Source: a virus
IMG/VR virus record: IMGVR_UViG_3300045988_106519
Coordinates: 1-64,000 of that record
Length of the DNA stretch: 64,000 nucleotides
Direction: 5' to 3' (one strand)
Of the stretch, positions 10,772 through 56,121 are shown one piece after another; the first letter of the stretch is position 1, and every line of letters starts with the position of its first letter. The notes under the pieces are model-generated. The model ran no database searches and was not told where the DNA came from. It worked only from the letters and a program-made list of their open reading frames with translations. Both the position numbers and the translations under genes were made by a program.

Positions 10772-11242
10772 CTATTTTTGAAATTTAAATGTTATATCAT
10801 ATTTATAATAACTACCATTTCCTTGATGTTCTATCTTATAGAATCTTTGATTAGTTGTTGGACTATTAAGTCCTCCAAGCTCTTGATCATAATGTCCTAT
10901 TTTAACAAAATCAAGATATTTAAGAATACTTGTCTTATCTTTAGGAATCATGTCAAGACCACAATACCAGGCTGTCTTTATTCTTAAATGAGCGTACTGA
11001 AATAGCTCTATAAGAGAATTAATGTCATGTTCACCTCCAAGAAGACAAAGACATGTGATGCCTTGGTGTTTGTCAAGGAGAGATTGAAGTTCCTCGATAG
11101 TAAGAGGAGTGCCTTTATCTTCCCACAACTCTCTGGAATGACATCCTTGGCAATGAATTTGACAACCAGAGATAGAGATGCCAAGGGATATTTCCCCTGG
11201 CACCTCACTGAATACTTCTTTACAATAAATGTATTTTAGCAT
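10772..11242 (-). CDS. nrdG: Anaerobic ribonucleotide reductase activating protein (radical SAM)
   Basis: SGCQIHCQGCHS is a CxxxCxxC cluster near the N-terminus. Overlaps the nrdD stop. Confidence 0.8.
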   Translation of the reverse strand: MLKYIYCKEVFSEVPGEISLGISISGCQIHCQGCHSRELWEDKGTPLTIEELQSLLDKHQGITCLCLLGGEHDINSLIELFQYAHLRIKTAWYCGLDMIPKDKTSILKYLDFVKIGHYDQELGGLNSPTTNQRFYKIEHQGNGSYYKYDITFKFQK

Positions 11243-13437
11243 ACTTCATCTTTTTTAGCAAATATACGATGGCTGCCTTCCCACTGACGACTTTCAGACC
11301 ATGACTTAAGAGGTTTTAAATAACCTATCACACGAGTCCATAGAGTAGTGTTATGACTGCCACATTTAGGACAGATATGGAAAGGATGCTTGGCAATAAA
11401 CTTACAATCATCACACTGAGTCTGAGGGACATTGAAAGTGATGTAATTATTGCCTACCTTAACAGCGTATTCAAGAAGCTTAGTGTACTGCTCTTTAGAC
11501 AAATTATCCTCAAGATTGAGATGAGAAGCCTGTCCACCATCAATAGATTGGGCAATCTGACCACCCTGCATGGCAATTTTGTTAAGAATAGAAGTGTTGT
11601 CATGAGCATCATAGATATAGGAATTGTATAGATTCTCATCAGAAGGAACCCAATAACCATCCTGCTTGTCCCAATTATAATTTTTCACACCCAAGGACTC
11701 AGCAGGAACTAACTCCAAATTGAACATGAACTTCTTAGAAGAGTGCTGCTTGTTGTATTGCTTAATGACACTAAGAACCCATGATGCAAAGTCAAGGTAT
11801 TCTTTATTATTGCTAACAGTAAGTCCGAGGAATCTTGCAGCTTCATTAAGACCATTGACACCAATAGTACAATAGAGCCTATCAAAGTTTATATAGCCAG
11901 CTTTGGTTTGAGGGAACATACCATGAGCATCCATATGGTAAAGTCCAGTCTTATAAGCACGTTGATAGTCATAGACTCTGAGAAGAATGTCTTCAAGATA
12001 CTTCTGGAAAAGTTTAGAGCCTTCTTCATTCCACAATCTACGAACTGCAATCATCTTTCTTTCTGTTGCACCATTATTAGATCTATGTCTTTGTGGAGAA
12101 TACTCCTTATACCAATCTTGAATAATTCTATTAAGATTGAGAGTCATGACATTACAAGAGCCAGTTTGCACACCAGTAAGACCAGTGGTAGAAGAGAATG
12201 TGTTGTCAGTAACCTCATTGCGGAGTCTACAGCAAGAAGAGATACTATCTGCATTCTTGGAGAGATAGACAAAGAAAGAGTCACCTTCAGCCCATTGAGT
12301 AGTGATGAAATCCTTATACTCCTTGTCAAGAACATCATTGTCGTCAGTAAGACAACATACTGTGATAACAGGAAAAGTAAGTAGGGTTTCAGTGCGCTCT
12401 TTATTAAGCCACCTCATATATCTCTTCTGCAACCAATTGACAGCATTCCAATTAGGCTTGGAACCATCAGGGAAACAAAAATCATCAAACATAGCATGCC
12501 AATAGTAGCTGTCAAAGACATTAAAGTTGGTAAATGGTGATTGATAGCCACGATTGCCAGCAGGCTGATTGAGATAATGAGTTACAGACTGAAAGTACTG
12601 GTCAATGGTTTGACCTATAGTCTTAGACTCAAGACAATGCTCATTGGTAATTATGACATCTTCCTTGAGATAATACTCCTTACCCCATTCCTTTTCACAG
12701 AAATAAGAGAAGAAGTTGAAGAACTCACCATAAGCTCCAGCACCCTTCTTTTGAGCAGACAAGAGGAATATAAGATTCTGAAACTGTCCACAGAAAGAGC
12801 TAAGATGATGAGGAGCATGGTTCTTAGTACCATCAATATTGGTAGTACCATCAACAAGAAGAGGATAGAGAGTATAAGCACTACAATATGGTTTGAGAAT
12901 AGGACAACTCTCATCATGCTGATAAAGAATGTGATGCTCAAGGTCCTTAATGTACTGGTCTCTATATGGAGAATTAATCTCAGCAAGAAGTTCCTTCATC
13001 TGAGAACGCTGTACTAAGCGAGAGGTATCTTTGTAAAGTTCACCTTCAAGAGTGGCAGCATTCTTATTAATAGTATTAGCATTGTCGTCAGTATTAGAAA
13101 GATTGGTAGCAGAAGATTCAGAATCATTGTACTTATGAATATAATGTACTTTATCTTTTATAATACGAGCTTCAGTATGCTTCTCTCTGTAAAGCATATA
13201 AGCCTTGCCTACAGGGAACCAACGTTTGCAAAGATACTTTTCTACTTTATTCTGAATATCCTCTACTGAGGTATCTTCATGCACTTCCTTCTCAATGCTA
13301 TCAAGAAATACTGAGATGTCCTTTTTATCCTTTTCAGAAAGTGAGAAGTTGCAAGCCTGGAATGCTTGAAGCATAGCAGACTCAATCTTTTCTGTGGAAA
13401 ACTCTTCTTTGGAGCCATTACGTTTAATTACAAACAT
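11236..13437 (-). CDS. nrdD: Anaerobic ribonucleoside-triphosphate reductase
   Basis: 733 aa. ATP-cone-like N-terminus (VIKRNGSKEEFSTEKI); C-terminal zinc ribbon CDDC...CPKCGS followed by the glycyl-radical motif TRVIGYL. Confidence 0.9.
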   Translation of the reverse strand: MFVIKRNGSKEEFSTEKIESAMLQAFQACNFSLSEKDKKDISVFLDSIEKEVHEDTSVEDIQNKVEKYLCKRWFPVGKAYMLYREKHTEARIIKDKVHYIHKYNDSESSATNLSNTDDNANTINKNAATLEGELYKDTSRLVQRSQMKELLAEINSPYRDQYIKDLEHHILYQHDESCPILKPYCSAYTLYPLLVDGTTNIDGTKNHAPHHLSSFCGQFQNLIFLLSAQKKGAGAYGEFFNFFSYFCEKEWGKEYYLKEDVIITNEHCLESKTIGQTIDQYFQSVTHYLNQPAGNRGYQSPFTNFNVFDSYYWHAMFDDFCFPDGSKPNWNAVNWLQKRYMRWLNKERTETLLTFPVITVCCLTDDNDVLDKEYKDFITTQWAEGDSFFVYLSKNADSISSCCRLRNEVTDNTFSSTTGLTGVQTGSCNVMTLNLNRIIQDWYKEYSPQRHRSNNGATERKMIAVRRLWNEEGSKLFQKYLEDILLRVYDYQRAYKTGLYHMDAHGMFPQTKAGYINFDRLYCTIGVNGLNEAARFLGLTVSNNKEYLDFASWVLSVIKQYNKQHSSKKFMFNLELVPAESLGVKNYNWDKQDGYWVPSDENLYNSYIYDAHDNTSILNKIAMQGGQIAQSIDGGQASHLNLEDNLSKEQYTKLLEYAVKVGNNYITFNVPQTQCDDCKFIAKHPFHICPKCGSHNTTLWTRVIGYLKPLKSWSESRQWEGSHRIFAKKDEVC

Positions 13438-15399: not shown

Positions 15400-16023
15400 T
15401 TACTTTGTTTCATACCATTCTATGCCATAGCCATTTTGTCCTATGAGAATACTATTGATATTAGTCCATAGGTTAGAGGGCATAACTTGATTATTCTTTG
15501 CATACCATGATGGATGTCTTGTTTTTAGGATATAGTTATATTTACTATTGATGCAGGACTCAAAGCTTTGAGCCTCAGATCCCATGAGAACATAGACAAT
15601 ACCATTGGTGTGTAAAGAGAGATTAGTGAGAAGAGACCTGATAAAAGGTTTCCACAATAAAGCATGAGACCCTACTTTGCCTACATTACAGGAAAGTGCA
15701 GAATTAAGCATAAGCACTCCCTGAGACTCCCACTTCTCCAAACTTGGGTCAAAGTTAATACTTCCATGAGGAAGGGAGAAGTCAATAACAGACTCCATAA
15801 GAACTTCTAAGGAAGGAGAAAAGTGGGAAGGAGATGTAGAAGGGTCTTGTCCCATAATGACAACCCTAAGATTATGTAATGGACATAAGGTGAAATCTTT
15901 GAATATATCCTTGATATTAGGGTATATAGGTTGTTTAGAAGCTACAAGTTTCTTAAGAATAGTGTTTGCTTCAGTCAGATTGATAACCTTACACCAATCT
16001 CCAAAATATTCTTGTATTGTCAT
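15400..16023 (-). CDS. ung: Uracil-DNA glycosylase (family 1-like)
   Basis: VVIMGQDPS (GQDP water-activating loop), VLMLNSALS, and TRHPS near the C-terminus. Confidence 0.75.
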   Translation of the reverse strand: MTIQEYFGDWCKVINLTEANTILKKLVASKQPIYPNIKDIFKDFTLCPLHNLRVVIMGQDPSTSPSHFSPSLEVLMESVIDFSLPHGSINFDPSLEKWESQGVLMLNSALSCNVGKVGSHALLWKPFIRSLLTNLSLHTNGIVYVLMGSEAQSFESCINSKYNYILKTRHPSWYAKNNQVMPSNLWTNINSILIGQNGYGIEWYETK

Positions 16024-16766
16024 TCTACTACTTCATCAATATGGTCAAGTGCAACACTGAGAAGTTCCTCATTTGTAGTAGAGACAGACGGTGCATTGAC
16101 TTTTTGAAGAGTAAATGGGAACTCGCCTATATCCACTTTGATATTGAAGGACTCATAGGTTGAAAGAAACAGGGGATTGCCGTATATATGAGGGGCATCA
16201 TACCTGTTTCTAAGAGCATTGGGGATTATCTGATTGATAATATATCGTGTGAGAGAATCAGCCTTAACAGTGAATACAGACGGAGAAACCCTTAGAATAG
16301 GTTGAGTAAACTTATACACAAAAGATTTATCAGGATTGTCCTGCTGTACCTTCTCAATCCGCCATGACATAATCATGACAGGCATGAGGTTCTTATTGAA
16401 GATAGCTCCACATGTACCATAATAATAGTTTTCACCTTGAGTATCCAATGGTATTTTTACAAGACGTGCTCTATTAAATATGTTTATCAATATCGCACGC
16501 ATCTTAGAAGACAATGTCTTAAAATTAGATTCTGTACCTATATAATTAAGACGTGCTGTAAGAGAATCTACCTCGTCAGATGTAACAACAGGTAGATTAC
16601 AATTAGACAGTTTTCCAAGCATAAATACAGGAAGCTCAAAGACATCCTTGAATATTGGGACATTCATATACTGAAGATTACGAATTACAGTGTCCCTAAT
16701 AGGATAGATAGAGTCTTGAAAGTATCCTTCAAAGCATCTTTGGATTATATATTTTAAATCTCTCAT
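16020..16766 (-). CDS. hypothetical protein co-translated with the E1-like gene
   Basis: 248 aa. Its start shares base 16766 with the E1-like stop, and its stop overlaps the UDG start (ATGA). Confidence 0.5.
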   Translation of the reverse strand: MRDLKYIIQRCFEGYFQDSIYPIRDTVIRNLQYMNVPIFKDVFELPVFMLGKLSNCNLPVVTSDEVDSLTARLNYIGTESNFKTLSSKMRAILINIFNRARLVKIPLDTQGENYYYGTCGAIFNKNLMPVMIMSWRIEKVQQDNPDKSFVYKFTQPILRVSPSVFTVKADSLTRYIINQIIPNALRNRYDAPHIYGNPLFLSTYESFNIKVDIGEFPFTLQKVNAPSVSTTNEELLSVALDHIDEVVE

Positions 16767-17803
16767 CAGCTTTGGGTTTTGAATAACATGTTTGGAGAAT
16801 CATACTCAGTAAAGAAAGGAAGATCATAAGGGATGATGGGATTAAGAGAATTGGCAATGAAATTGGTAAAGAGATTTACCATAAGAGAGCCAATCATACA
16901 AGCAAGATAAGTGGTCTGTTTCATTGAACATACAGTATGTTCGGCCTGGAAATCAGAGAAGAGAAACTCAGTTTCATACCTATCCATACTAGCCTTATCA
17001 TCACCTTGAATACAGAAAATCTGTAAGGTATCAATAGACAATCTACCATCAAGGAAGAGACACTTAGCTCTACTGTCTGGAGTTAAGGTCTGTATATGTC
17101 TTTTCCAAGAATTGTAGAAAATCTTTCGTGCAGTCATGTTGTCAAATCCACAAATCATGATGGCACCAGCCTCAGTGTTGTCAGTGAACTTACTTGGAAC
17201 AGCATTGACCTGCTTGGCTAATGTGTAGGCAGAAATCATAGAAGCTATAGCATCAACCTTACGTTGTCCAATGTCATTGGTGCTGTAGAGTTGCCCTGCC
17301 ATATTAACCCTTTCTACAATATCCTCATCATAGAGAGTGATGTTAGCAGGAGCCATGCGTGCAAGCTGAAAAGCTACATTAGAACCAATACCTCCTATGC
17401 CAGCAATAATGACACGAGACTTCTGTATCTCATCAAACCATGATGCACCAGAGAAACGGGTAGTGGCTTCATCAACAAGGAGGGATGGAGAATTAAGAGG
17501 AAGAGGAGTAAAGGTAGATTCTGTAGATTCTGTAGGTGGAGTAGATGGAGTAGATTCTGTAGGTGAAGTAAGTTCTGCTTCATCTATATCCCCAAGAAGG
17601 GGTTCTGTGTCTAAATCATCATTTCCTTCTCCTTGATTTTCATCATAATAATTCTCCTCTGGTATTTCTTCAAATTCAGGGTCTAAGATACCATCATTTT
17701 CAATGATGCCATTTTCTTCAAGAATATCATTTACATCATTATCAGTAATATTGAGAGAAGTAGTCTCATTATTGTTTGAATTATTAATATCATTTGTTTC
17801 CAT
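16766..17803 (-). CDS. ThiF/MoeB/E1-like adenylating enzyme with acidic TEST-repeat N-terminal extension
   Basis: VIIAGIGGIGSNVAFQLARM (GxGGxGS Rossmann), ITLYDEDIVERVN, and a downstream Cys in EHTVCSMKQTTYLACMIGSL resembling the MoeB/ThiF crossover region. Confidence 0.75.
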   Translation of the reverse strand: METNDINNSNNNETTSLNITDNDVNDILEENGIIENDGILDPEFEEIPEENYYDENQGEGNDDLDTEPLLGDIDEAELTSPTESTPSTPPTESTESTFTPLPLNSPSLLVDEATTRFSGASWFDEIQKSRVIIAGIGGIGSNVAFQLARMAPANITLYDEDIVERVNMAGQLYSTNDIGQRKVDAIASMISAYTLAKQVNAVPSKFTDNTEAGAIMICGFDNMTARKIFYNSWKRHIQTLTPDSRAKCLFLDGRLSIDTLQIFCIQGDDKASMDRYETEFLFSDFQAEHTVCSMKQTTYLACMIGSLMVNLFTNFIANSLNPIIPYDLPFFTEYDSPNMLFKTQS

Positions 17804-17806
17804 AAG

Positions 17807-19048
17807 CTATACAATATATTGGTAAAGTGTATTGATGTAATGCTGTATATAAGGATTATCATCAACATATTCAGAAAGTTCATCAATAATAGATTGTGCA
17901 ACAACACTTGTAAATATGTCATACTCATCATACATATAAGAAGGAATATCAGGTTCATCATAGTGGTCAAGAGTGAACTGTATGATGAAGTCACGCCATT
18001 CACAGAAGGCATTTGGAAGACTGTCTACAGTAGCAGGCTTGCCAAAGATGCGCTGATAGACATTGAACATGTGACGTGTAATCCAATGCTTGAAGTTGAA
18101 GTTCTTAGGATTGAGAATGAGATTGAGAGTGACTATATGAATCACAGCTTCATGAATCTTCTTAGGGTCAGGGGTCCAGTCATACTCAGTCTCTGTTTCA
18201 GTAGCATTCTGTTTAGGAGTGTCCTTGAAATCAAGAGAAGTCTGCTGTGGAACAGCATTGTTTCTTATATCCTTAGTATGAAGCCAATCAAAAAACTGAG
18301 TATTACCAGTTTCAGACTTTAAATTGAAATCACTAGTTTGCTGAGAGACAACAGAAGTCTTTGCAACATCTTTCTTTTTAAGTTCAATTTCTGCAAAACG
18401 AGTGTCAAGATAAGAAAGAGTATTAGGGACTTCATGACGTTCGACCTGTAAGTCAAAATACTCAATATATTCCTTGTCAACAATCTTAGTCAACTCAGTA
18501 GAGTCATTGCTGATGGTCTTAGAACCATTGCCAAAGAACTCATAAGAAGTACCAAGAGGCTTGACAATGACCTCAGATTTAGACTGTATCTTACGAGTGA
18601 TACGTGCAACATAAGTACCTTTAGTGTCAACAACAAGAGATACAAAACAGTTGGTGTCATTGCCTTCCTGCTGAAGCATTAGATTGTCTTGACCACTGAA
18701 GAATGCACCCAATGCATGATGAGAATGTATCAAGCCAGTGTCACAATCAAACAGCTCAATGTTCTGAGCCATATAAGCTGCGACCTCTTCAGACATGTGA
18801 AACTCAGTCCATCCAGATGTGCCTAAGTCCATAGGATAGAAATCAGCACAAGTAATGACCAAATCATTATTCTCAAAAGAACCTTCATGAGTGAAGAAAA
18901 GAACTCCAGACCATTCAGTAGAGGGAAATTTACGGATGAGATACCTAATCTTTTCCTCTACACTTTGAGGAACAATGAGTTTATATGTAGACTGTCCTTT
19001 TACAAGTTTGGGAAGAGTCTGGGGCTGCGTTGTTATTGTTGTGTTCAT
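17807..19048 (-). CDS. JAB/MPN (JAMM) metallopeptidase domain protein
   Basis: 413 aa. Upstream Glu in STEWSG, then HSHHALGAFFSGQD, an exact HxHx7Sx2D JAMM motif (aa ~108-121). Confidence 0.8.
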   Translation of the reverse strand: MNTTITTQPQTLPKLVKGQSTYKLIVPQSVEEKIRYLIRKFPSTEWSGVLFFTHEGSFENNDLVITCADFYPMDLGTSGWTEFHMSEEVAAYMAQNIELFDCDTGLIHSHHALGAFFSGQDNLMLQQEGNDTNCFVSLVVDTKGTYVARITRKIQSKSEVIVKPLGTSYEFFGNGSKTISNDSTELTKIVDKEYIEYFDLQVERHEVPNTLSYLDTRFAEIELKKKDVAKTSVVSQQTSDFNLKSETGNTQFFDWLHTKDIRNNAVPQQTSLDFKDTPKQNATETETEYDWTPDPKKIHEAVIHIVTLNLILNPKNFNFKHWITRHMFNVYQRIFGKPATVDSLPNAFCEWRDFIIQFTLDHYDEPDIPSYMYDEYDIFTSVVAQSIIDELSEYVDDNPYIQHYINTLYQYIV

Positions 19049-20069
19049 TTTTATATCTATAATTAATTACTTTGAGAATGTTCTTCAATATGTCCATAGC
19101 CATAGTATGATGTATGACAGTAACAGGAAAGAACTCATTGGAAGGAGAATCAATAATGGTAGTAAGAATGCGTTTGCCTTTAAAGACAAGTACAAACTTA
19201 CCTTTATAGCGATTTAAGTTTTGTAAATTTATATTGTTTATTGGAACATAAAACTTTTCATCAGAGACAACAAGAGAGGTAAGCAAATTGCTGTTAACAA
19301 GTTTTCGCTTAGTAGATTCAGTAGTGAAAACAGTATTGCAATAGCTGATGAAAGCATTGCTTATATCAATGATGAACTTATAGAAAGGCATGCCACAAAT
19401 AAACTGACCATTACGGAAACTAAGAGAAAGATGCCCATGAGTAAGATAATACTGTATGAACTCCTTTTTCATAAAATCAGTAAAGAAATCGGGGTATAGG
19501 AAACCAGATCCATTGAAAGTATAATAAACATAATTACGAGCTATAGTAGACTTTCCTATGTTCTCCATTCTTCGCCAAGGACCTCCAGAGATAGACTCAA
19601 CAGTGACATACATGGAAAGCTCCTGACAGAAGAGCATCCATTCAGCAATGTCGCAATCAGTCTTAAGAGTGTTGATAGTGTTTCTGATAGGTCCATCACC
19701 AAGGCAAGGACTTTGAAATTGAGTGAAATCATCTTTAGGAATATATTTTACATGACTGTGCATATAGTTACTAAGAAACTGTTCTTGAGAATATGTAGCC
19801 CTGTTGAGCTGAAAGCCAGAGAACTCAAAAGGAATACGACCTTCATTATTGATTTCAATCTTTGCATAAAGGTCTTGAATAGAGACAGACTGGTCATATT
19901 CATTGGTGACAGTGACATGAGGCCACCAAACATAGATGAGATAATAGGAAGAATCAGCTTTAGTCTGAATATCAACATACTGCTCACCAAAGAAATTCTT
20001 GAAGACCTCATATATATCACAAACCTCTTGATGATCAGGATTAAGGATAGGATTTGCTGAATGTTGCAT
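18981..20069 (-). CDS. Candidate E2/UBC-like protein (inference)
   Basis: Start moved to the ATG at 20069 (MQHSANP). Beta-rich YYLIYVWWPHVTVTNE...IPFEFSGFQLN, then YMHSHV, and 14 aa later SPCLGDGPI plus a helix, an HPN...Cys-like layout. Overlaps the JAB gene by 68 nt. Confidence 0.35.
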   Translation of the reverse strand: MQHSANPILNPDHQEVCDIYEVFKNFFGEQYVDIQTKADSSYYLIYVWWPHVTVTNEYDQSVSIQDLYAKIEINNEGRIPFEFSGFQLNRATYSQEQFLSNYMHSHVKYIPKDDFTQFQSPCLGDGPIRNTINTLKTDCDIAEWMLFCQELSMYVTVESISGGPWRRMENIGKSTIARNYVYYTFNGSGFLYPDFFTDFMKKEFIQYYLTHGHLSLSFRNGQFICGMPFYKFIIDISNAFISYCNTVFTTESTKRKLVNSNLLTSLVVSDEKFYVPINNINLQNLNRYKGKFVLVFKGKRILTTIIDSPSNEFFPVTVIHHTMAMDILKNILKVINYRYKNEHNNNNAAPDSSQTCKRTVYI

Positions 20070-20155
20070 ACTAATTATTTTAAAAACAAAAATAAAGGGA
20101 GCAAGGACAAATATCCCTACTCCCAATGACCAAAACGGAAATATAAAGTTATGTT

Positions 20156-20950
20156 TTACAAGTCAAGGTCGTCAATGATGTCATCAATATCATCATCATC
20201 AATAAGGTTGTTGGGTGTTGTAACACACTGAGCTTGATTAAGTGTATCGGCTACAATATCACCCTTAGAAATAATGAGTTTGTGAATATCCTTTTCCAAC
20301 ATATGCAAATCAGGAATAATCAACACACCTTTGGCAACAAGAGTGCTGATATGGGTAAACAAACTGTCGGCAATAGCAAAAGTCTTAGAAGCATTATTCT
20401 CATTAACAACATTGGCTTCATTATCAACATTGTTCTTATTGTCAACATTGCTTATATCAGAAGCATTGCCAGAAGGAACTATAGTTTCTTCTTTAGCATT
20501 AGTTTTAACCCCCTCTGTCTTTGGAGTCTCAGCTTCCTTTTTCTGCTCACACCATTTACCACTATCAATGAACAATTCAAGGTCCTTGTTAGATACTTGA
20601 GTGTAGTTTCTACCAAATTTATTTTTGATAGCTTCCTGTAGATTATTGCGCTTAATAATATCTTTAATCTCCTGGCGACTAAGAGCACCAGAAGCAATAT
20701 TCTTCTTGGTATTGGTGAGAAGAATGACAAGATTGTTGGTAGGTTGGCCCTTGTATATTACATTCTGTGGAAGCTGAGTGTCATCACTAAGAAGCTGCGT
20801 CTTAGAAATGCCTTCAGTAAAGGTCATGTTTTGGAAATCAATACCAGCAGCACGAAGGTCTGCCTTCAATTCTCCAAGAGTTGTAGCACTAGTTGTAATC
20901 TTACTTCTTTTTTGAGTCTTAGTATTTGCGATAAGAATTTCTCTTTCCAT
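20156..20950 (-). CDS. Protein with candidate N-terminal ubiquitin-like beta-grasp and acidic C-terminal tail (inference)
   Basis: The first ~85 aa (EILIANTKT..TLGELKADLRAAGIDFQNMTFTEG..LVILLTNTKKNIASG) read like a beta-grasp pattern. The C-terminus is IDDDDIDDIIDDLDL. Confidence 0.3.
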   Translation of the reverse strand: MEREILIANTKTQKRSKITTSATTLGELKADLRAAGIDFQNMTFTEGISKTQLLSDDTQLPQNVIYKGQPTNNLVILLTNTKKNIASGALSRQEIKDIIKRNNLQEAIKNKFGRNYTQVSNKDLELFIDSGKWCEQKKEAETPKTEGVKTNAKEETIVPSGNASDISNVDNKNNVDNEANVVNENNASKTFAIADSLFTHISTLVAKGVLIIPDLHMLEKDIHKLIISKGDIVADTLNQAQCVTTPNNLIDDDDIDDIIDDLDL

Positions 20951-20962
20951 AATATATTTTTT

Positions 20963-21967
20963 TTAATTGAATAAATTTTTTAATTGTTTAAATTGTGTTT
21001 TATCCTGCAAAGATTTGAAGTAATCGCTATAATCTTTACAAGAACCAAGATTGGGTATGATATTAACAAAACCAGTGCGTTTTGCTAATTTTTTTCCATC
21101 AATTAATCCAGCTTTATCAGTGTCGAAGGAGATAAAAACCTTCTTATATCTTCTTTTTAATTCATTGACAGCAGTGTCGGACATATCATAGCCTTCGCCT
21201 TGAAGACATAAAGCAGGAATGTGAAGCTGACAAGATATGCACAAAGCATCCTTTAAAGAAGAACAGATGATAACCTTATCACCATAAGTAGGAATCTTAG
21301 TCCAAAGACCTATGACAGAAGCATCCATCTTAGATGACCATTTGAATCCTTTAGTATTATAAGGTTGGTAGATTTTCATCTGTATATTACCTTCTTTTCG
21401 CTCAATGAAACTATAGGCATACTTGTCAGCAGGAAATATATACTGTCTTCCTTTGTCAGAGGGAGAGCTTTTCTTGTTAATAATCTTATAGGAGATAGGA
21501 TAAATCTCAGCATAATGAAGCCACTTTTTAGAGACCCCATAAGACTCCCAATAAGCATAATCATAATCACGCCAAGGACGTACTTTGACTTGAATAGAAG
21601 TAAGAGAACTTGCTTCTTTTCTTGTAAAAGTGCGGATTTGCTTAGGCTTGATGGTGACATCACTCTTTAGAATCATGAGATTACAGATTTTTTCAAGTGC
21701 TTGATTGAAAGTACACTTCCAATAAGCACACAGAAGGTCAAGTAATCCACCATGAACAGAAGAGTCGGCATGGTCTTTATACCTAATGTGACCACCATTA
21801 TCCATATAAATACTAAATGAAGGATGAAGGTCGTCCCTAAGAGGAGATGAAATTCTACAAGGAATAGAAGTGATTTCAGGAAATACAGTAGATAGAACCT
21901 GTGTTTCACTAACCTTATTAAAGATTTCAGTTTTAGATATGCTGGAGGAAGTTTTACCTATCACCAT
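20963..21967 (-). CDS. DnaG-like primase (zinc-binding region plus Toprim)
   Basis: Toprim signature CLQGEGYD ... ISFDTDKAG; N-terminal Cys/His-rich region. Start moved to the ATG at 21967 (MVIGK). Confidence 0.6.
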   Translation of the reverse strand: MVIGKTSSSISKTEIFNKVSETQVLSTVFPEITSIPCRISSPLRDDLHPSFSIYMDNGGHIRYKDHADSSVHGGLLDLLCAYWKCTFNQALEKICNLMILKSDVTIKPKQIRTFTRKEASSLTSIQVKVRPWRDYDYAYWESYGVSKKWLHYAEIYPISYKIINKKSSPSDKGRQYIFPADKYAYSFIERKEGNIQMKIYQPYNTKGFKWSSKMDASVIGLWTKIPTYGDKVIICSSLKDALCISCQLHIPALCLQGEGYDMSDTAVNELKRRYKKVFISFDTDKAGLIDGKKLAKRTGFVNIIPNLGSCKDYSDYFKSLQDKTQFKQLKNLFN

Positions 21968-21998
21968 AAGATTATTAATGTAAAGCAGTTTTAGAATA

Positions 21999-22931
21999 TT
22001 AGTAGTTCCAAGGCATGTCGCCCATAGAAGCCTCAGACCCCTGACCATCAGTAGAAGTAGTAGGAGCAGTAGAGAGGTCGGTAGGCTCTACAGAATATTC
22101 TGCAAGGGGTTGCACACGGAAATCAGTAGAAGCATAAGAACCTGCATTCTTAGCATTGATAAGGTCTTTCTCAAGCTTGTCAAGAGCCTTAGAACCAGCA
22201 CTATTGAGAAGAATCATACCATTGCGTGTAGCAACAGTCTGATACTGCTTACCATCATCCTTAGTACGTACACCATAAAGAAGCTTAACCTTATTGTTAG
22301 GCTGAAGAGCAATGGCATCCTTGATTTCAGAGAAATTGCCAGAGAAATAATCCTTAATATGCTCAAGACCAAAGAGGAAGTCATCAGCATTGTCCTTCTT
22401 TACCCAAGAATCATTGACATAGTTGAAGGCATCGCCTACATTGAGGTAAGCCTTAAGGAAGCCAATAAGGTCAGCCTCGCCAACACAAGCCATGCGATAA
22501 GAAGAATCAATCTTAAGTTCCTTGCCAGTAGTAGAGAAAAGCTTCTTGCCAGCCTTGGCATCCTCAATGTTAGCCCAAGTAGTGTTGCCATACTTGTCAA
22601 TGACTTGTACCTTAGACTGGTCTTTGTTATAAGCAGGAGCATTGCTAAGAGTAAACATTACACGATTGGTAATTTCAATACCATTACAGATGTTAGGGTC
22701 GGTTTTAACTATAAATGTAATACGAGCCTCCTTACCCTTGTCAGTATCAACTACATATTCAGGGTCATTAGCCATTTCATGGCCATAGATTTCCTCAAGC
22801 TCCTTTTTTGTAGGATTGACTGCAACTACATAAGAAGAGCCTACACCAACATACTTCTTGAACTCCTGAGTTTCAGTAGATTCCTGTGTCTTGCCAATAG
22901 CAAGAAAAACATAACTGTTATTAATTTCCAT
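21999..22931 (-). CDS. hypothetical protein, possible ssDNA-binding protein
   Basis: 310 aa. Called from position between the primase and recombination ATPase genes and a beta-rich sequence. No diagnostic motif. Confidence 0.3.
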   Translation of the reverse strand: MEINNSYVFLAIGKTQESTETQEFKKYVGVGSSYVVAVNPTKKELEEIYGHEMANDPEYVVDTDKGKEARITFIVKTDPNICNGIEITNRVMFTLSNAPAYNKDQSKVQVIDKYGNTTWANIEDAKAGKKLFSTTGKELKIDSSYRMACVGEADLIGFLKAYLNVGDAFNYVNDSWVKKDNADDFLFGLEHIKDYFSGNFSEIKDAIALQPNNKVKLLYGVRTKDDGKQYQTVATRNGMILLNSAGSKALDKLEKDLINAKNAGSYASTDFRVQPLAEYSVEPTDLSTAPTTSTDGQGSEASMGDMPWNY

Positions 22932-31993: not shown

Positions 31994-32037
31994 TACTCCC
32001 TATTGGGCTTGAACCAATGACACCAGGCTTAGTATAG
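31994..32037 (-). tRNA. 3' half of a split tRNA (anticodon-stem 3' strand, variable loop, T-arm, acceptor 3' strand)
   Basis: Minus strand reads CTATACTAA-GCCTG-GTGTC-ATTGG-TTCAAGC-CCAAT-AGGGAGT-A. GCCTG and AGGGAGT pair with CAGGT and GCTCCCT of the 5' half at 32799-32837. Confidence 0.6.
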
Positions 32038-32111
32038 TGGTTGATATGGGACTCAAACCCATACTCTTCCCTTTAGGAGAGGGATGCTTTATTCAATTAA
32101 GCTAATCAACC
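32038..32111 (-). tRNA. tRNA-Arg (anticodon CCT)
   Basis: Hand-folded cloverleaf: GGTTGAT-TA-GCTT-AATTGAATA-AAGC-A-TCCCT-CTCCTAA-AGGGA-AGAGT-ATGGG-TTTGAGT-CCCAT-ATCAACC-A. All stems are Watson-Crick paired. Confidence 0.85.
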
Positions 32112-56017: not shown

Positions 56018-56092
56018 GTTTCAATAGCTCAGTTGGATTAGAGCAACAGCCTTCTAAGCTGTGGGTCTTGGGTTCGAACCCCAACGGAATCA
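56018..56092 (+). tRNA. tRNA-Arg(TCT)-derived sequence lacking a pairing 5' acceptor strand; probable attP core
   Basis: TA-GCTC-AGTTGGATTA-GAGC-A-ACAGC-CTTCTAA-GCTGT-GGGTC-TTGGG-TTCGAAC-CCCAA-CGGAATC-A folds well. The 7 nt in the 5' acceptor position (GTTTCAA) pair at only 4 of 7 positions with CGGAATC. Confidence 0.5.
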
Positions 56093-56121
56093 CAACGAAA
56101 AAATGCTTCAAATTTGATTGT

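What the first reader, a model, noticed from the sequence alone, without database searches (positions are those of the whole stretch)
16020..20950. Phage-borne ubiquitin-like conjugation cassette (Ubl-like / E2-like / JAB / E1-like) inside the replication module
Seen directly: ORF 16766-17803 has the ThiF/MoeB/E1 adenylation signature (VIIAGIGGIGSNVAFQLARM, LYDEDIVERVN, a downstream Cys in EHTVCSMKQTTYLACMIGSL) behind an acidic TEST-repeat extension. ORF 17807-19048 has a complete JAMM motif (Glu in STEWSG, then HSHHALGAFFSGQD = HxHx7Sx2D). Inference: the next upstream ORF (18981-20069) has a UBC-like layout, with a beta meander, then YMHSHV, then SPCLGDGPI 14 aa later, then a helix. ORF 20156-20950 opens with about 85 aa that read like a beta-grasp (TLGELKADLRAAGIDFQNMTFTEG...LVILLTNTKKNIASG), followed by a long acidic tail. 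The order Ubl-E2-JAB-E1 matches bacterial Bil (BilABCD) antiphage operons. E1+E2+JAB sets are also known on mobile elements (prokaryotic E2/JAB/E1 neighbourhoods, PRTRC cassettes). Here the set sits in a phage and is translationally coupled: the E2-like and JAB genes overlap by 68 nt, base 16766 is shared by two genes, and there is an ATGA overlap into UDG. It lies between primase and UDG, and all components are unusually large (345-413 aa). A phage-encoded conjugation/deconjugation system could tag host or virion proteins, or counteract host Ubl-based defence.
Basis: partly seen in the sequence, partly recalled or inferred. Interest (0 to 1): 0.9.

Follow-up and report, generated by a model that had tools for sequence, protein, structure and literature searches.

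The report
Ubiquitin-like tagging genes in crAss-like phage
A gut crAss-like phage, and every sampled relative whose contig reaches far enough, carries a tightly packed set of genes for a ubiquitin-shaped protein, an activating enzyme, a trimming protease and a probable transfer enzyme, so these very abundant phages may run their own protein-tagging system, which I found described in no paper I could search.

Summary
On the minus strand between primase (20963-22048) and UDG (15400-16023) lie five genes:
- a 264-aa protein whose first 88 residues fold as ubiquitin (AlphaFold2 plus Foldseek, probability 1.00);
- a 362-aa protein with invariant His106 and Cys122 and a UBC-like order of helices and strands. 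Its best structural matches are UBC-superfamily members (UFC1, an RWD domain, UbcA1), but none is significant;
- a JAB/JAMM metalloprotease with a complete motif;
- a ThiF-type E1;
- an unknown 248-aa protein, called X here.

All 105 related phage loci fetched keep the block in this order wherever the contig extends, including Flavobacterium phage FpV4.

New findings:
- The Ubl domain ends in a conserved K-x-I/V-x-S-G tail that is internal to the protein. In three relatives a homing-endonuclease gene splits the gene exactly after that Gly codon.
- A terminator-like hairpin follows the Ubl gene in 67 of 69 distinct related regions.
- Group I introns sit in the JAMM and Gly-loop motifs of one relative.
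- The E1 has an invariant Gly where active E1s have the Arg of NxxRQ.

Best reading: a phage-encoded Ubl processing and conjugation system, with Bil-like gene order but not a member of Bil, PRTRC, Cap2 or Bub. The E2 assignment and the conjugation chemistry remain unproven.

The parts
20156..20950 (-). Gene for the Ubl precursor (264 aa). It has a ubiquitin-fold domain (aa 1-88), a small helical domain (aa 91-135), and a variable, net-acidic C-terminal part that ends in DDDDIDDIIDDLDL. Homologue of crAss001 gp79.
   Evidence: ORF. AlphaFold2 model. Homologues.
20687..20950 (-). Ubiquitin-like beta-grasp domain, aa 1-88, ending in the tail K82-K-N-I-A-S-G88.
   Evidence: Strands 3-9 and 14-20, helix 25-34, strands 42-46, 64-66, 69-71 and 74-80, with pLDDT 76-89. 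Residues 82-88 have pLDDT below 50. Foldseek against the PDB gives ubiquitin, ISG15, UBX, Hub1 and SUMO, probability 1.00, E from 4e-4, target-normalised TM-score about 0.6. It is the most conserved segment of the block, 82-92% identity where the E1 core is 67-74%. The K-x-[IV]-x-S-G tail is found in 69 of 74 distinct N-termini.
20687..20689 (-). Codon of Gly88, the predicted JAB cleavage and activation site.
   Evidence: Conservation breaks directly after it, and the following linker varies in length and sequence. In L065, L067 and L098 a homing-endonuclease ORF is inserted exactly after this codon.
20087..20124 (-). Terminator-like hairpin (12-bp stem, 6 G-C pairs, 4-nt loop) followed by TTTATTTTTG, between the Ubl gene and the E2-like gene.
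   Evidence: A hairpin plus T-run is present in 67 of 69 distinct related regions, against 2 of 69 and 1 of 64 in coding controls. The stem sequences are unrelated between clades.
18981..20069 (-). Gene for the E2-like protein (362 aa). The N-terminal domain is about aa 10-170; the C-terminal domain, about aa 198-343, is of unknown fold. Homologue of crAss001 gp78.
   Evidence: AlphaFold2 mean pLDDT 84. 2199 clusters at 50% identity match at E<=1e-3.
19704..19760 (-). Candidate E2 active-site loop, from H104-S-H106 to C122 (PCLGDGPI).
   Evidence: S105, H106 and C122 are invariant and H104 is at 99% in 147 representatives. The motif is also kept in FpV4 gp52 (YMHSH...FCIGSED). In the model it lies in the loop between strand 4 and the next helix.
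17807..19048 (-). Gene for the JAB/JAMM metalloprotease (413 aa). The JAB domain covers about aa 20-160, followed by a poorly conserved C-terminal domain. Homologue of crAss001 gp77.
18686..18727 (-). JAMM motif HSHHALGAFFSGQD (H108, H110, S118, D121). The upstream Glu45 is at 18914-18916.
   Evidence: Invariant in 16 diverse homologues. A group I intron in L058 and a 2.1-kb insertion in L042 both fall inside this motif.
16766..17803 (-). Gene for the E1-like adenylyltransferase (345 aa). It has an acidic, variable N-terminal extension (aa 1-110; 30 Asp+Glu, no Lys or Arg) and a ThiF core (aa 111-345). Homologue of crAss001 gp76.
   Evidence: Pfam ThiF, E 1.4e-20. Alignment. Residue composition.
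17381..17401 (-). Nucleotide-binding loop GIGGIGS (aa 135-141).
   Evidence: A group I intron in L058 sits inside this motif.
17291..17332 (-). YDEDIVERVNMAGQ. The ATP-site motif D-x-D...N-x-x-R-Q has Gly170 in place of the Arg.
   Evidence: Aligned to ERSNLSRQ of UBA7 and ELSNINRQ of PaaA. The Gly is invariant in 10 diverse phage homologues.
16928..16930 (-). Cys292 of the E1 (CSMKQT), the candidate thioester or crossover-loop cysteine.
   Evidence: Invariant in 10 diverse homologues, including FpV4. Its equivalence to MoeB C187 and ThiF C184 is my own reading from remembered sequences and was not tested with a tool.
16020..16766 (-). Gene X (248 aa), of unknown function, always directly after the E1 gene. 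Homologue of crAss001 gp75.
   Evidence: Present in 72 of 80 loci; the misses are at contig ends or beyond an insertion. Alignable with crAss001 gp75. It has no invariant Cys, His, Asp or Glu. No Pfam or PDB match.

Best explanation
This is a phage-encoded ubiquitin-like protein (Ubl) processing and conjugation module, conserved in crAss001-type crAss-like phages and in FpV4-type Flavobacterium phages.

Proposed mechanism:

1. The Ubl is made as the N-terminal 88 residues of a 264-aa precursor. Its gene ends a transcription unit or is followed by an attenuator, so the modifier is likely made in excess over the enzymes. The enzyme genes (E2-like, JAB, E1, X, UDG) are translationally coupled. 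The gene layout is shown; the expression consequence is inferred.

2. The JAB/JAMM metalloprotease cuts after Gly88 (K-x-I-x-S-G|). This frees an 88-aa Ubl with a C-terminal glycine and a 176-aa C-terminal fragment, net acidic in its distal part. Inferred.

3. The ThiF-type E1, probably a homodimer, adenylates Gly88. It may form a thioester on invariant Cys292. Inferred.

4. The Ubl passes to invariant Cys122 of the E2-like protein, assisted by His104/His106. The C-terminal domain of that protein, or protein X, selects the target. No E3 gene is present, as in Bil. Inferred.

5. JAB may also reverse conjugates. Inferred.

Targets are unknown. The position in the replication module suggests replication proteins or host proteins that act early in infection.
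For: - Fold of the Ubl domain: AlphaFold2 plus Foldseek give probability 1.00 to ubiquitin, ISG15 and SUMO.
- Processing site after Gly88: the tail has low confidence in the model. The S-G tail is conserved and the following linker is variable. The domain is the most conserved piece of the block, with dN 0.07-0.09 against 0.20-0.22 for the E1 core, while synonymous sites are well diverged.
- Natural variants carry the Ubl as a separate 91-aa ORF ending SGKF or SGIC, with the C-terminal part as its own ORF. No intron was detected there.
- JAB: the JAMM motif is complete and invariant, and 16 of 16 homologues hit Prok-JAB.
- E1: Pfam ThiF at 1.4e-20; the Gly loop, the Asp of GFDN, a Lys and a Cys are invariant.
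- E2-like: invariant His/Cys loop and UBC-like order of secondary structure. The top PDB hits are an RWD domain, UFC1, UbcA1 and UBE2O.
- The whole block is kept in order in 105 related loci, including FpV4, where UDG sits elsewhere.
- The order Ubl-E2-DUB-E1 equals BilABCD (bioRxiv 10.1101/2023.09.04.556158).
- Precedent for an operon's JAB cutting a Ubl fusion right after a conserved Gly: BubCD acting on BubAB (PMC11601596).
- Group I introns lie inside the JAMM and Gly-loop codons of relative L058. This fits homing into strongly conserved sequence of genes that must stay functional.
Against: - The E2 assignment is not significant by any measure. No Pfam, NCBIfam, PADLOC or PDB sequence hit was found even across 85 diverse members. 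The best Foldseek hit has E 0.13, probability 0.54 and a TM-score of about 0.4. hhalign against UFC1, UBE2D2 and a Bub E2 gave nothing.
- The spacing from the His to the Cys (16-20 residues) is longer than in canonical E2s.
- The E1 has Gly where adenylating E1, MoeB and MccB enzymes have the Arg of NxxRQ, as in the inactive first adenylation domain of UBA7.
- The Ubl tail ends in a single S-G rather than GG, and it is internal to the protein.
- The Ubl model rests on a shallow alignment and reaches only moderate confidence (pLDDT about 80).
Confidence: 0.55

Rival explanations
1. Sulfur-carrier pathway. The Ubl is a ThiS/MoaD-type carrier. JAB exposes its C-terminal Gly, and the ThiF-type E1 adenylates it so that it can be thiocarboxylated. 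The sulfur then goes into a phage-specific small molecule, a nucleotide or a DNA modification. The 'E2-like' protein would be a Cys-dependent sulfur relay or a biosynthetic enzyme.
For: - The best NCBIfam matches of the E1 are ThiF models (PRK08644 at 2.8e-19, thiF_fam2 at 2.2e-15).
- Sets of JAB, E1 and ThiS/MoaD for sulfur transfer are known (PMC1779556).
- The block lies among nucleotide-metabolism genes (ribonucleotide reductase 11236-13437, UDG).
- The invariant Cys292 of the E1 sits where I place ThiF Cys184.
Against: - All the ThiF-model scores are far below their cut-offs (70 against 159 bits), and Cap2-type E1-E2 models score similarly.
- Pfam found no rhodanese domain, cysteine desulfurase, ThiG/ThiH/MoaE-like partner or any other sulfur enzyme in the seven proteins of the block and its two flanking genes.
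- The top 50 Foldseek hits of the Ubl are ubiquitin, ISG15, SUMO and UBX proteins, with no ThiS or MoaD among them.
- The tail is S-G, not G-G.
- The gene order equals Bil.
Confidence: 0.12
2. Processing only, without conjugation. The ubiquitin-fold domain acts as a cleavable N-terminal chaperone or interaction module for the acidic C-terminal protein, as in eukaryotic ubiquitin-ribosomal protein fusions or lambda TAPI/TAPK. The E1-like protein has an altered ATP site and does something else, such as a scaffolding role or adenylation of another substrate, as MccB, PaaA and TcdA do.
For: - The E1 lacks the conserved Arg of NxxRQ in every homologue.
- Pairs of a Ubl and a JAB with no E1 or E2 are known in phage tail assembly (PMC1779556).
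- The E2 assignment is unproven.
- After the natural split, both halves of the precursor stay intact as ORFs.
Against: - The other E1 motifs (Gly loop, the N-terminal Arg of RF..W, Lys, the Asp of GFDN, the Cys) are invariant across very distant phages.
- The Ubl domain is the most constrained piece of the block, as expected of a modifier with several partners.
- An invariant His/Cys protein always sits between the Ubl and JAB genes.
Confidence: 0.18
3. Counter-defence. The module exists mainly to neutralise host Ubl-based immunity such as Bil, or CBASS with Cap2/Cap3. It could strip host conjugates with JAB, or flood or mis-charge host enzymes with a decoy Ubl.
For: - The gene order resembles Bil, and the E1 core hits PADLOC Cap2-type E1-E2 models at 2e-12 and BilD at 3e-6.
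- Host systems of this kind target phage proteins (bioRxiv 10.1101/2023.09.04.556158).
Against: - Anti-defence genes are usually small, variable and patchily distributed. This is a large block, fixed in position in the replication module in every sampled relative, and shared with Flavobacterium phages.
- No similarity to BilA, BilB or BilC was found.
- A JAB alone would be enough for deconjugation.
Confidence: 0.1

Closest known systems
BilABCD (bacterial ISG15-like antiphage system)
   Same: - It has four core functions in the same gene order: Ubl, E2, JAB deubiquitinase, E1.
- It has no E3 gene.
- Some BilA proteins carry short overhangs after the conserved Gly that need trimming.
   Different: - The set is encoded by a lytic-type phage, not by a host defence island.
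- The E1 is a single ThiF domain of about 235 aa plus an acidic tail, not the IAD-AAD-CYS architecture.
- The Ubl has one beta-grasp domain followed by a 176-aa C-terminal protein.
- The E2-like and JAB proteins each carry a large extra C-terminal domain.
- A fifth gene, X, is present.
- PADLOC BilA, BilB and BilC models do not match, and BilD matches only partially at 3e-6.
Bub / 6E operons (BubAB, BubCD, BubE)
   Same: - The Ubl is made as a fusion.
- The operon's JAB cuts immediately after a conserved Gly (PMC11601596).
- The E1 has a single adenylation domain and is homodimeric.
   Different: - In Bub the Ubl is fused to the E2 and the JAB to the E1.
- Bub works through oxyester intermediates without catalytic cysteines.
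- Bub has a DUF6527 serine protease.
- In the phage the genes are separate, the Cys residues are invariant, and no DUF6527 was found.
Five-gene Ubl / helical protein / E2 / JAB / E1 operons of mobile elements (type 6d of Iyer et al. 2006) and the PRTRC cassette
   Same: - It has five separate genes, including a small Ubl with a C-terminal Gly, an E2-like protein, JAB and E1.
- It is found on mobile DNA (PMC1779556).
   Different: - NCBIfam PRTRC_ThiF scores 41 bits against a cut-off of 144.75.
- PRTRC_A scores 14 bits against 101.8.
- The other PRTRC models do not match.
- The phage Ubl is not a stand-alone protein.
- No ParB gene was seen next to the block.
Lambda and T1 tail assembly proteins TAPI (Ubl) and TAPK (JAB + NlpC/P60)
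   Same: - A phage-encoded Ubl domain is joined by a linker to a C-terminal domain.
- It sits next to a JAB peptidase predicted to cut after the last Gly (PMC1779556).
   Different: - It lies in the tail module, with no E1 and no E2.
- The phage block here lies in the replication module and includes an E1 and an E2-like protein.
CBASS Cap2/Cap3
   Same: - It has a ThiF-type E1 with a single adenylation domain and a JAB partner.
- PADLOC E1-E2 models match the E1 core at 2e-12.
   Different: - Cap2 is an E2-E1 fusion that conjugates the C-terminus of a CD-NTase.
- It has no Ubl.
- Only about 90 residues of the Rossmann core match.

Membership tests
ThiF/MoeB/E1 superfamily (PF00899) | Profile match above Pfam's gathering score | tested here: met
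   74 bits against 28.1, E 1.4e-20, aa 121-341.
ThiF/MoeB/E1 superfamily (PF00899) | Gly-rich nucleotide loop and the metal-binding Asp | tested here: met
   GIGGIGS and GFDNMTAR are invariant in 10 diverse homologues. They align to UBA7 and PaaA.
ThiF/MoeB/E1 superfamily (PF00899) | Arg of the N-x-x-R-Q ATP-phosphate motif | tested here: not met
   The motif reads NMAGQ. The Gly is invariant in all phage homologues, and it aligns to the Arg of UBA7 (active domain) and of PaaA.
ThiF/MoeB/E1 superfamily (PF00899) | Cysteine in the crossover region, for a thioester or acyl-persulfide | tested here: inconclusive
   Cys292 is invariant. Its structural position was not modelled, and the equivalence to ThiF C184 is my own reading.
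JAB/MPN+ (JAMM) metalloproteases | Motif E...HxHx7Sx2D | tested here: met
   E45, H108, H110, S118 and D121 are invariant in 16 homologues.
JAB/MPN+ (JAMM) metalloproteases | Profile match to Prok-JAB (PF14464) | tested here: inconclusive
   The window protein has E 3e-4 and 21 bits, below the 25-bit cut-off. All 16 diverse homologues match, best E 9e-6.
UBC/E2 superfamily | Fold: N-terminal helix, four-strand antiparallel meander, active-site loop, then helices | tested here: inconclusive
   The AlphaFold2 order of elements fits. The top PDB hits are an RWD domain, UFC1, UbcA1 and UBE2O, but with E 0.13-1.5, probability at most 0.54 and a TM-score of about 0.4.
UBC/E2 superfamily | Conserved catalytic Cys preceded by a conserved His | tested here: met
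   H106 and C122 are invariant in 147 representatives. The spacing of 16 residues is longer than the canonical spacing of about 8.
UBC/E2 superfamily | Sequence-profile match to UQ_con or Prok-E2 families | tested here: not met
   No hit in Pfam, NCBIfam or PADLOC for 85 members at E<=5. No hit with the PDB profile search. hhalign probability below 1%.
Ubiquitin-like beta-grasp modifiers | Beta-grasp fold | tested here: met
   Foldseek probability 1.00, E from 4e-4, target-normalised TM-score about 0.6, to ubiquitin, ISG15, SUMO, UBX and Hub1. The model pLDDT is 76-89.
Ubiquitin-like beta-grasp modifiers | Flexible tail ending in a conserved Gly that becomes the C-terminus | tested here: inconclusive
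   The S-G tail is found in 69 of 74 distinct N-termini and is disordered in the model. The Gly is internal, so cleavage is inferred. Natural splits leave 2 residues after the Gly.
Ubiquitin-like beta-grasp modifiers | Sequence-profile match to ubiquitin, Prok_Ub or ThiS families | tested here: not met
   No Pfam hit. hhalign against ubiquitin gives a probability of 0.3%.
BilABCD | Gene order Ubl-E2-JAB-E1 | tested here: met
BilABCD | E1 with the IAD-AAD-CYS architecture, and matches to the BilA-D models | tested here: not met
   The E1 has a single adenylation domain. PADLOC BilD matches at 3.4e-6 over about 100 aa only, and BilA, BilB and BilC do not match.
PRTRC cassette | NCBIfam PRTRC_ThiF and PRTRC_A to F above their cut-offs | tested here: not met
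   41 against 144.75 bits, and 14 against 101.8 bits. The other models do not match.
Bub (6E) | Ubl-E2 and JAB-E1 fusions, plus a DUF6527 protease | tested here: not met
   The genes are separate and no DUF6527 hit was found. A genuine Bub operon is shown in L111 for comparison.
ThiS/MoaD sulfur-carrier systems | Rhodanese domain or sulfurtransferase partner, and a carrier ending in GG | tested here: not met
   Pfam found no such domain in the proteins of the block. The tail is S-G and internal.

The most novel reading that the evidence does not exclude
CrAss001-type crAss-like phages and FpV4-type Flavobacterium phages encode a complete, self-contained ubiquitin-like conjugation cascade. It would consist of a precursor Ubl released by a JAB protease, a ThiF-type E1 with an unusual ATP site that lacks the canonical Arg, and a very divergent two-domain E2 that picks targets without an E3. 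The phage would use it to tag its own or host proteins during genome replication. To my knowledge this would be the first full E1-E2-DUB-Ubl system described in a virus of bacteria, and its E2 family would be new.
Probability: 0.45. Interest if true: 0.9.

Novelty: new variant of a known kind. Interest (0 to 1): 0.78.

Why it matters
- Ubl conjugation in prokaryotes has so far been studied as a host weapon against phages (Bil, CBASS Cap2, and probably Bub). A conserved phage-side system would show that viruses of bacteria use the same chemistry, as many eukaryotic viruses do.

- The phages concerned belong to the most abundant phage group of the human gut. The E2-like protein alone has about 2200 clusters at 50% identity in public data, all effectively unannotated. 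Public records call these genes 'hypothetical', 'thiamine biosynthesis protein' or 'metalloprotease domain'.

- The system can be tested directly. crAss001, DAC15 and DAC17 are cultured on Bacteroides hosts, and four small proteins suffice for in vitro reconstitution.

- The E1 without the canonical Arg and the unrecognisable E2 could widen what counts as an E1 or an E2.

- The conserved internal S-G site offers a simple cleavage assay.

Tried and rejected
1. Sequence-based proof of the E2. Pfam, NCBIfam and PADLOC were run on the window protein and on 85 diverse members. A profile search was run against PDB sequences. hhalign was run against human UFC1, UBE2D2 and a Rhizobium Bub E2. All were negative. 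The same kind of test also fails for the Ubl against ubiquitin, although that fold match is clear. These negatives are therefore weak evidence.

2. Foldseek of the E2-like model against viral structures. It found only uncharacterised phage homologues; an annotated E2 appears at rank 33 with E 0.38.

3. The longer TTG start at 20126 for the E2-like gene. Rejected, because the conserved terminator hairpin would lie inside the ORF, and homologues align from the ATG at 20069.

4. A group I intron as the cause of the Ubl gene split in L065, L067 and L098. Rfam found none at E<=1, while it readily finds introns elsewhere in the same set of loci. Only 14-16 nt flank the HNH ORF in L098. An atypical intron cannot be fully excluded.

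5. A programmed frameshift that would fuse the E2-like and JAB proteins. The JAB frame is +1 relative to the E2-like frame, and no evidence was found. The overlap is treated as translational coupling.

6. Cellular homologues. The genome-contig scan found 4 loci, all on metagenome-assembled-genome contigs. Two are crAss-like phage contigs of 89 and 111 kb, one of them identical in length and range to an IMG/VR phage contig. The other two contigs are short, 4.4 and 15 kb. Plasmid tblastn with the E1 gave only weak, generic ThiF hits.

7. Stop-codon recoding as the reason for the ORF-poor stretch at 33-54 kb. Read-through of TAG or TGA does not lengthen the ORFs.

8. The third homologue search, with crAss001 gp79, returned only sequences more than 92% identical to the query and added little depth to the Ubl alignment.

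9. A literature search for a prior description. No paper in the held library links crAss-like phages with ThiF, E1 or ubiquitin-like proteins. Yutin et al. 2018 could not be opened.

Full report
**1. What is there**

The window comes from a crAss-like phage. DNA-level search of the phage collection finds nothing. At protein level the region matches Bacteroides phage crAss001, DAC15/DAC17, the 'cr' metagenomic Steigviridae and bajarodcaudo virus 1, at about 30-55% identity.

The minus strand carries these genes:

| Coordinates | Gene |
|---|---|
| 21999-22931 | SSB-like ORF |
| 20963-22048 | DnaG-type primase |
| 20156-20950 | 264-aa ORF (Ubl precursor) |
| 18981-20069 | 362-aa ORF (E2-like) |
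| 17807-19048 | 413-aa ORF (JAB) |
| 16766-17803 | 345-aa ORF (E1) |
| 16020-16766 | 248-aa ORF (X) |
| 15400-16023 | UDG |

- The E2-like and JAB genes overlap by 68 nt.
- A 3-nt spacer lies between the JAB and E1 genes.
- The E1 and X genes share one base in TGATG.
- The X and UDG genes overlap in ATGA.

In crAss001 the same genes are gp80 (primase), gp79, gp78, gp77 ('metalloprotease domain'), gp76 ('thiamine biosynthesis protein ThiF'), gp75 and gp74 (UDG).

**2. The E1**

- Pfam ThiF matches at E 1.4e-20, well above its cut-off.
- NCBIfam gives partial matches, all far below their cut-offs, to ThiF, MoeB, Cap2-type and PRTRC ThiF models.
- PADLOC matches Cap2-type E1-E2 models at about 1e-12 and BilD at 3e-6, over the Rossmann core only.

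Across ten homologues that reach out to Flavobacterium phage FpV4, the following are invariant:
- the motif RF..W;
- the loop G.GGI.S;
- YD.D...N..GQL;
- a Lys;
- GFD.M.AR;
- DGRL;
- Cys292 in C[ST]xKQT.

One anomaly stands out. The Arg of the N-x-x-R-Q motif is present in the active domain of UBA7 and in PaaA, and, from my own knowledge, in MoeB and ThiF. Here it is an invariant Gly, as in the inactive first adenylation domain of UBA7.

The first 110 residues form a poorly conserved acidic extension with 30 Asp+Glu and no Lys or Arg.

**3. The JAB**

The motif E45...H108-x-H110-x7-S118-x2-D121 is complete and invariant in 16 diverse homologues. All 16 match Pfam Prok-JAB, with a best E of 9e-6. 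The window protein itself is just under the gathering score. About 250 C-terminal residues are poorly conserved and unassigned.

**4. The Ubl**

AlphaFold2 was run on an alignment of 19 sequences. It gives the following:

| Residues | Prediction | pLDDT |
|---|---|---|
| 1-80 | beta-beta-alpha-beta...beta-grasp order | 76-89 |
| 82-88 (KKNIASG) | disordered tail | below 50 |
| 92-140 | small helical domain | 80-87 |
| 140 onward | low-confidence acidic region with C-terminal helices | low |

Foldseek against the PDB returns ubiquitin, ISG15, UBX, Hub1, SUMO and Bacteroides fragilis ubiquitin. The probability is 1.00, E runs from 4e-4, and the target-normalised TM-score is about 0.6. No ThiS or MoaD appears among the top 50.

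**5. The Ubl tail**

- Residues 1-88 are almost identical among homologues that are only 55-65% identical overall.
- Where the E1 core is 67-74% identical, this domain is 82-92% identical and the C-terminal part of the same protein is 28-30%.
- dN is 0.07-0.09, against 0.20-0.22 for the E1 core, while 47-62% of synonymous sites differ. The conservation is therefore selection on the protein.
- The domain ends in K-x-[IV]-x-S-G in 69 of 74 distinct N-termini; my pattern missed five, which I did not inspect. The residues after the Gly vary in both sequence and length. FpV4 has ...VKSGGRG.
- In three related contigs (L065, L067, L098) an HNH homing-endonuclease ORF is inserted exactly after the Gly codon. 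This leaves a stand-alone 91-aa Ubl ORF ending SGKF or SGIC, and a separate ORF for the C-terminal part with its own ATG.
- Rfam finds no intron there at E<=1, although it finds group I introns elsewhere in these loci at 77-97 bits.

Covalent linkage of the two halves is therefore probably dispensable, and the domain boundary is exactly the Gly. This is what one expects if the JAB releases the Ubl by cutting after Gly88.

A direct precedent exists. BubCD cuts the BubAB fusion immediately after a conserved Gly (PMC11601596). Some BilA proteins carry overhangs of 2-9 residues after their Gly.

**6. The E2-like protein**

The family is large: 2199 clusters at 50% identity match at E<=1e-3. In 147 representatives, D33, N56, E57, G77, S105, H106, C122, G124, T131, W144, C148, E150, E158, S159, G162 and P164 are invariant. 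The YMHSH...C motif is also present in FpV4 gp52, which lacks C148.

The AlphaFold2 model (mean pLDDT 84) has these elements in order:
- helix 11-27;
- four long strands between residues 32 and 94;
- a loop that carries H104/H106 and C122;
- helices 127-137 and 141-154.

That is the order of a UBC fold. A second domain follows at about residues 198-343.

Foldseek against the PDB gives no significant hit. Even so, the top of the list is dominated by UBC-superfamily members: the RWD domain 2ebk (E 0.13, probability 0.54), many UFC1 entries, the E2 UbcA1, and UBE2O. About 150 columns align, with a target-normalised TM-score of about 0.4.

Every sequence-based test is negative. The same kind of test is also negative for the Ubl against ubiquitin, so it has little power here.

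I rate the E2 assignment as probable, at about 60%, and not shown.

**7. Gene X**

X always follows the E1 gene, and the E1 stop overlaps the X start. It evolves fastest in the block, at 36-43% identity where the E1 core is 67-74%. It can still be aligned with crAss001 gp75. It has no invariant catalytic-type residue and no Pfam or PDB match. It could be an adaptor, a target or a partner of the E1. This remains open.

**8. Conservation of the block**

- In 25 loci fetched with the E1 and 80 fetched with the E2-like profile, E2-like identity runs from 33 to 96%.
- The order primase-Ubl-E2-like-JAB-E1-X-UDG is kept wherever the contig extends.
- Of the 80 loci, the Ubl gene is found in 80, JAB in 78, E1 in 74 and X in 72. 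The misses are at contig ends, and one lies beyond an inserted element in L041.
- FpV4 has the same five-gene block, with UDG moved to the other side. The block is therefore a unit that does not depend on UDG.
- In the genome collection only four contigs of metagenome-assembled genomes matched, at least two of them crAss-like phage contigs. No cellular counterpart was found at this sensitivity.

**9. Expression layout**

An 86-nt gap follows the Ubl gene. It holds a 12-bp G+C-rich hairpin followed by TTTATTTTTG (20124-20097).

A hairpin plus T-run is present at this position in 67 of 69 distinct related regions, against 2 of 69 and 1 of 64 in coding controls. The stem sequences are unrelated between clades, including crAss001 and FpV4.

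I infer a terminator or attenuator that separates the modifier gene from the translationally coupled enzyme genes. This would give more modifier than enzymes. It was not measured.

**10. Mobile introns as markers of constraint**

In L058, group I introns with LAGLIDADG ORFs interrupt two genes:
- the JAB gene, inside the HSH codons of the JAMM motif;
- the E1 gene, inside the GxGGIGS loop.

In L042 the JAB gene is interrupted at the same motif by 2.1 kb that holds two LAGLIDADG ORFs.

Homing into the most conserved catalytic codons is typical of phage genes that must stay functional. This fits active enzymes, but it says nothing about their chemistry.

**11. Mechanism and rivals**

| Reading | My confidence |
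|---|---|
| Ubl processing and conjugation module, as set out in the best explanation | 0.55 |
| Processing only, with no conjugation | 0.18 |
| Sulfur-carrier pathway | 0.12 |
| Dedicated counter-defence device | 0.10 |

- Processing only: kept alive by the missing Arg in the E1 and by the unproven E2.
- Sulfur carrier: the E1 resembles ThiF models, but there is no rhodanese domain or sulfur enzyme, the Ubl looks like ubiquitin rather than ThiS, and the tail is S-G.
- Counter-defence: hard to square with a large block fixed in the replication module of every sampled relative.

**12. Comparison with known systems**

It works like Bil in gene order and in the absence of an E3. It works like Bub in that the Ubl is made as a fusion cut by the operon's JAB. 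It fails the membership tests of Bil, PRTRC, Cap2/Cap3 and Bub.

The only phage precedent I know is the lambda and T1 TAPI/TAPK pair of a Ubl and a JAB in tail assembly, which has no E1 or E2 (PMC1779556).

I found no paper in the held library that links crAss-like phages with ThiF, E1 or ubiquitin-like proteins. Subscription-only papers could not be checked.

**13. Verdict**

This is a new variant of a known kind: an unrecognised phage-borne Ubl/E2-like/JAB/E1/X cassette with its own architecture. It is conserved across a major group of gut phages and can be tested directly in cultured phages.

Noticed in passing
L058: 6887-9227 and 9224-11253: Group I introns (Rfam RF00028, 78 and 97 bits) with LAGLIDADG ORFs interrupt the JAB gene inside the JAMM HSH codons and the E1 gene inside the GxGGIGS loop of a related phage contig.
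   Followed up: partly
L042: 7163-10405 (also L013): The JAB gene is split at ...ALVH | SHHNLGAF... by a 2.1-kb insertion that carries two LAGLIDADG-type ORFs on opposite strands. Rfam finds no group I intron there at E<=0.1.
   Followed up: partly
L065: 4370-5583; L067: 4654-5583; L098: 4277-5578: An HNH homing-endonuclease ORF is inserted exactly after the Gly codon of the Ubl tail. The precursor gene is thereby split into a 91-aa Ubl ORF and a separate ORF for the C-terminal part. Further HNH ORFs sit before or after the Ubl gene in L066, L096, L098 and L101.
   Followed up: yes
L098: 10782-11025; L064: 10674-10914; L070: 9746-10007: Further group I introns (77-85 bits) lie downstream of the E1 and X genes. 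In several loci only a 3' fragment of UDG is found 1-1.4 kb further on, which suggests that UDG, or X, is intron-interrupted in those phages.
   Followed up: no
window 20087-20124 (-): A strong terminator-like hairpin lies between the Ubl gene and the E2-like gene and is conserved in position across clades, though not in sequence. Its T-run, TATTTTTG, also fits the Bacteroides -7 promoter consensus TAnnTTTG as I remember it. This was not tested.
   Followed up: partly
window 21999-22931 (-): A 310-aa ORF upstream of the primase gene overlaps the primase start by 50 nt. Its acidic C-terminus ends in an aromatic residue (...GDMPWNY), which resembles T7 gp2.5-type single-stranded DNA-binding proteins. 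No family search was run on it.
   Followed up: no
window 32037-32111 (-) and 56018-56093 (+): Two tRNA-Arg genes, with anticodons CCT and TCT.
   Followed up: no
window 32700-54000: This 21-kb stretch has almost no ORF of 180 aa or more on either strand, and its GC skew is strongly negative. Read-through of TAG or TGA does not lengthen the ORFs, so stop-codon recoding does not explain it. It probably holds many small genes.
   Followed up: partly
L009-L012 and L031-L035, compared with the window: In these close relatives all genes of the block are 82-98% identical to the window, but the part of the Ubl precursor after residue 88 is only about 46-50% identical. This suggests that this part alone was exchanged by recombination.
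   Followed up: partly
L111: 3771-6211 (Rhizobium phaseoli plasmid pRphaR620c): A textbook Bub/6E operon (multiubiquitin protein, E2/UBC protein, ThiF-family E1, DUF6527 protein) turned up as a weak E1 hit. It sits next to an HTH regulator and an ImmA/IrrE peptidase pair.
   Followed up: no
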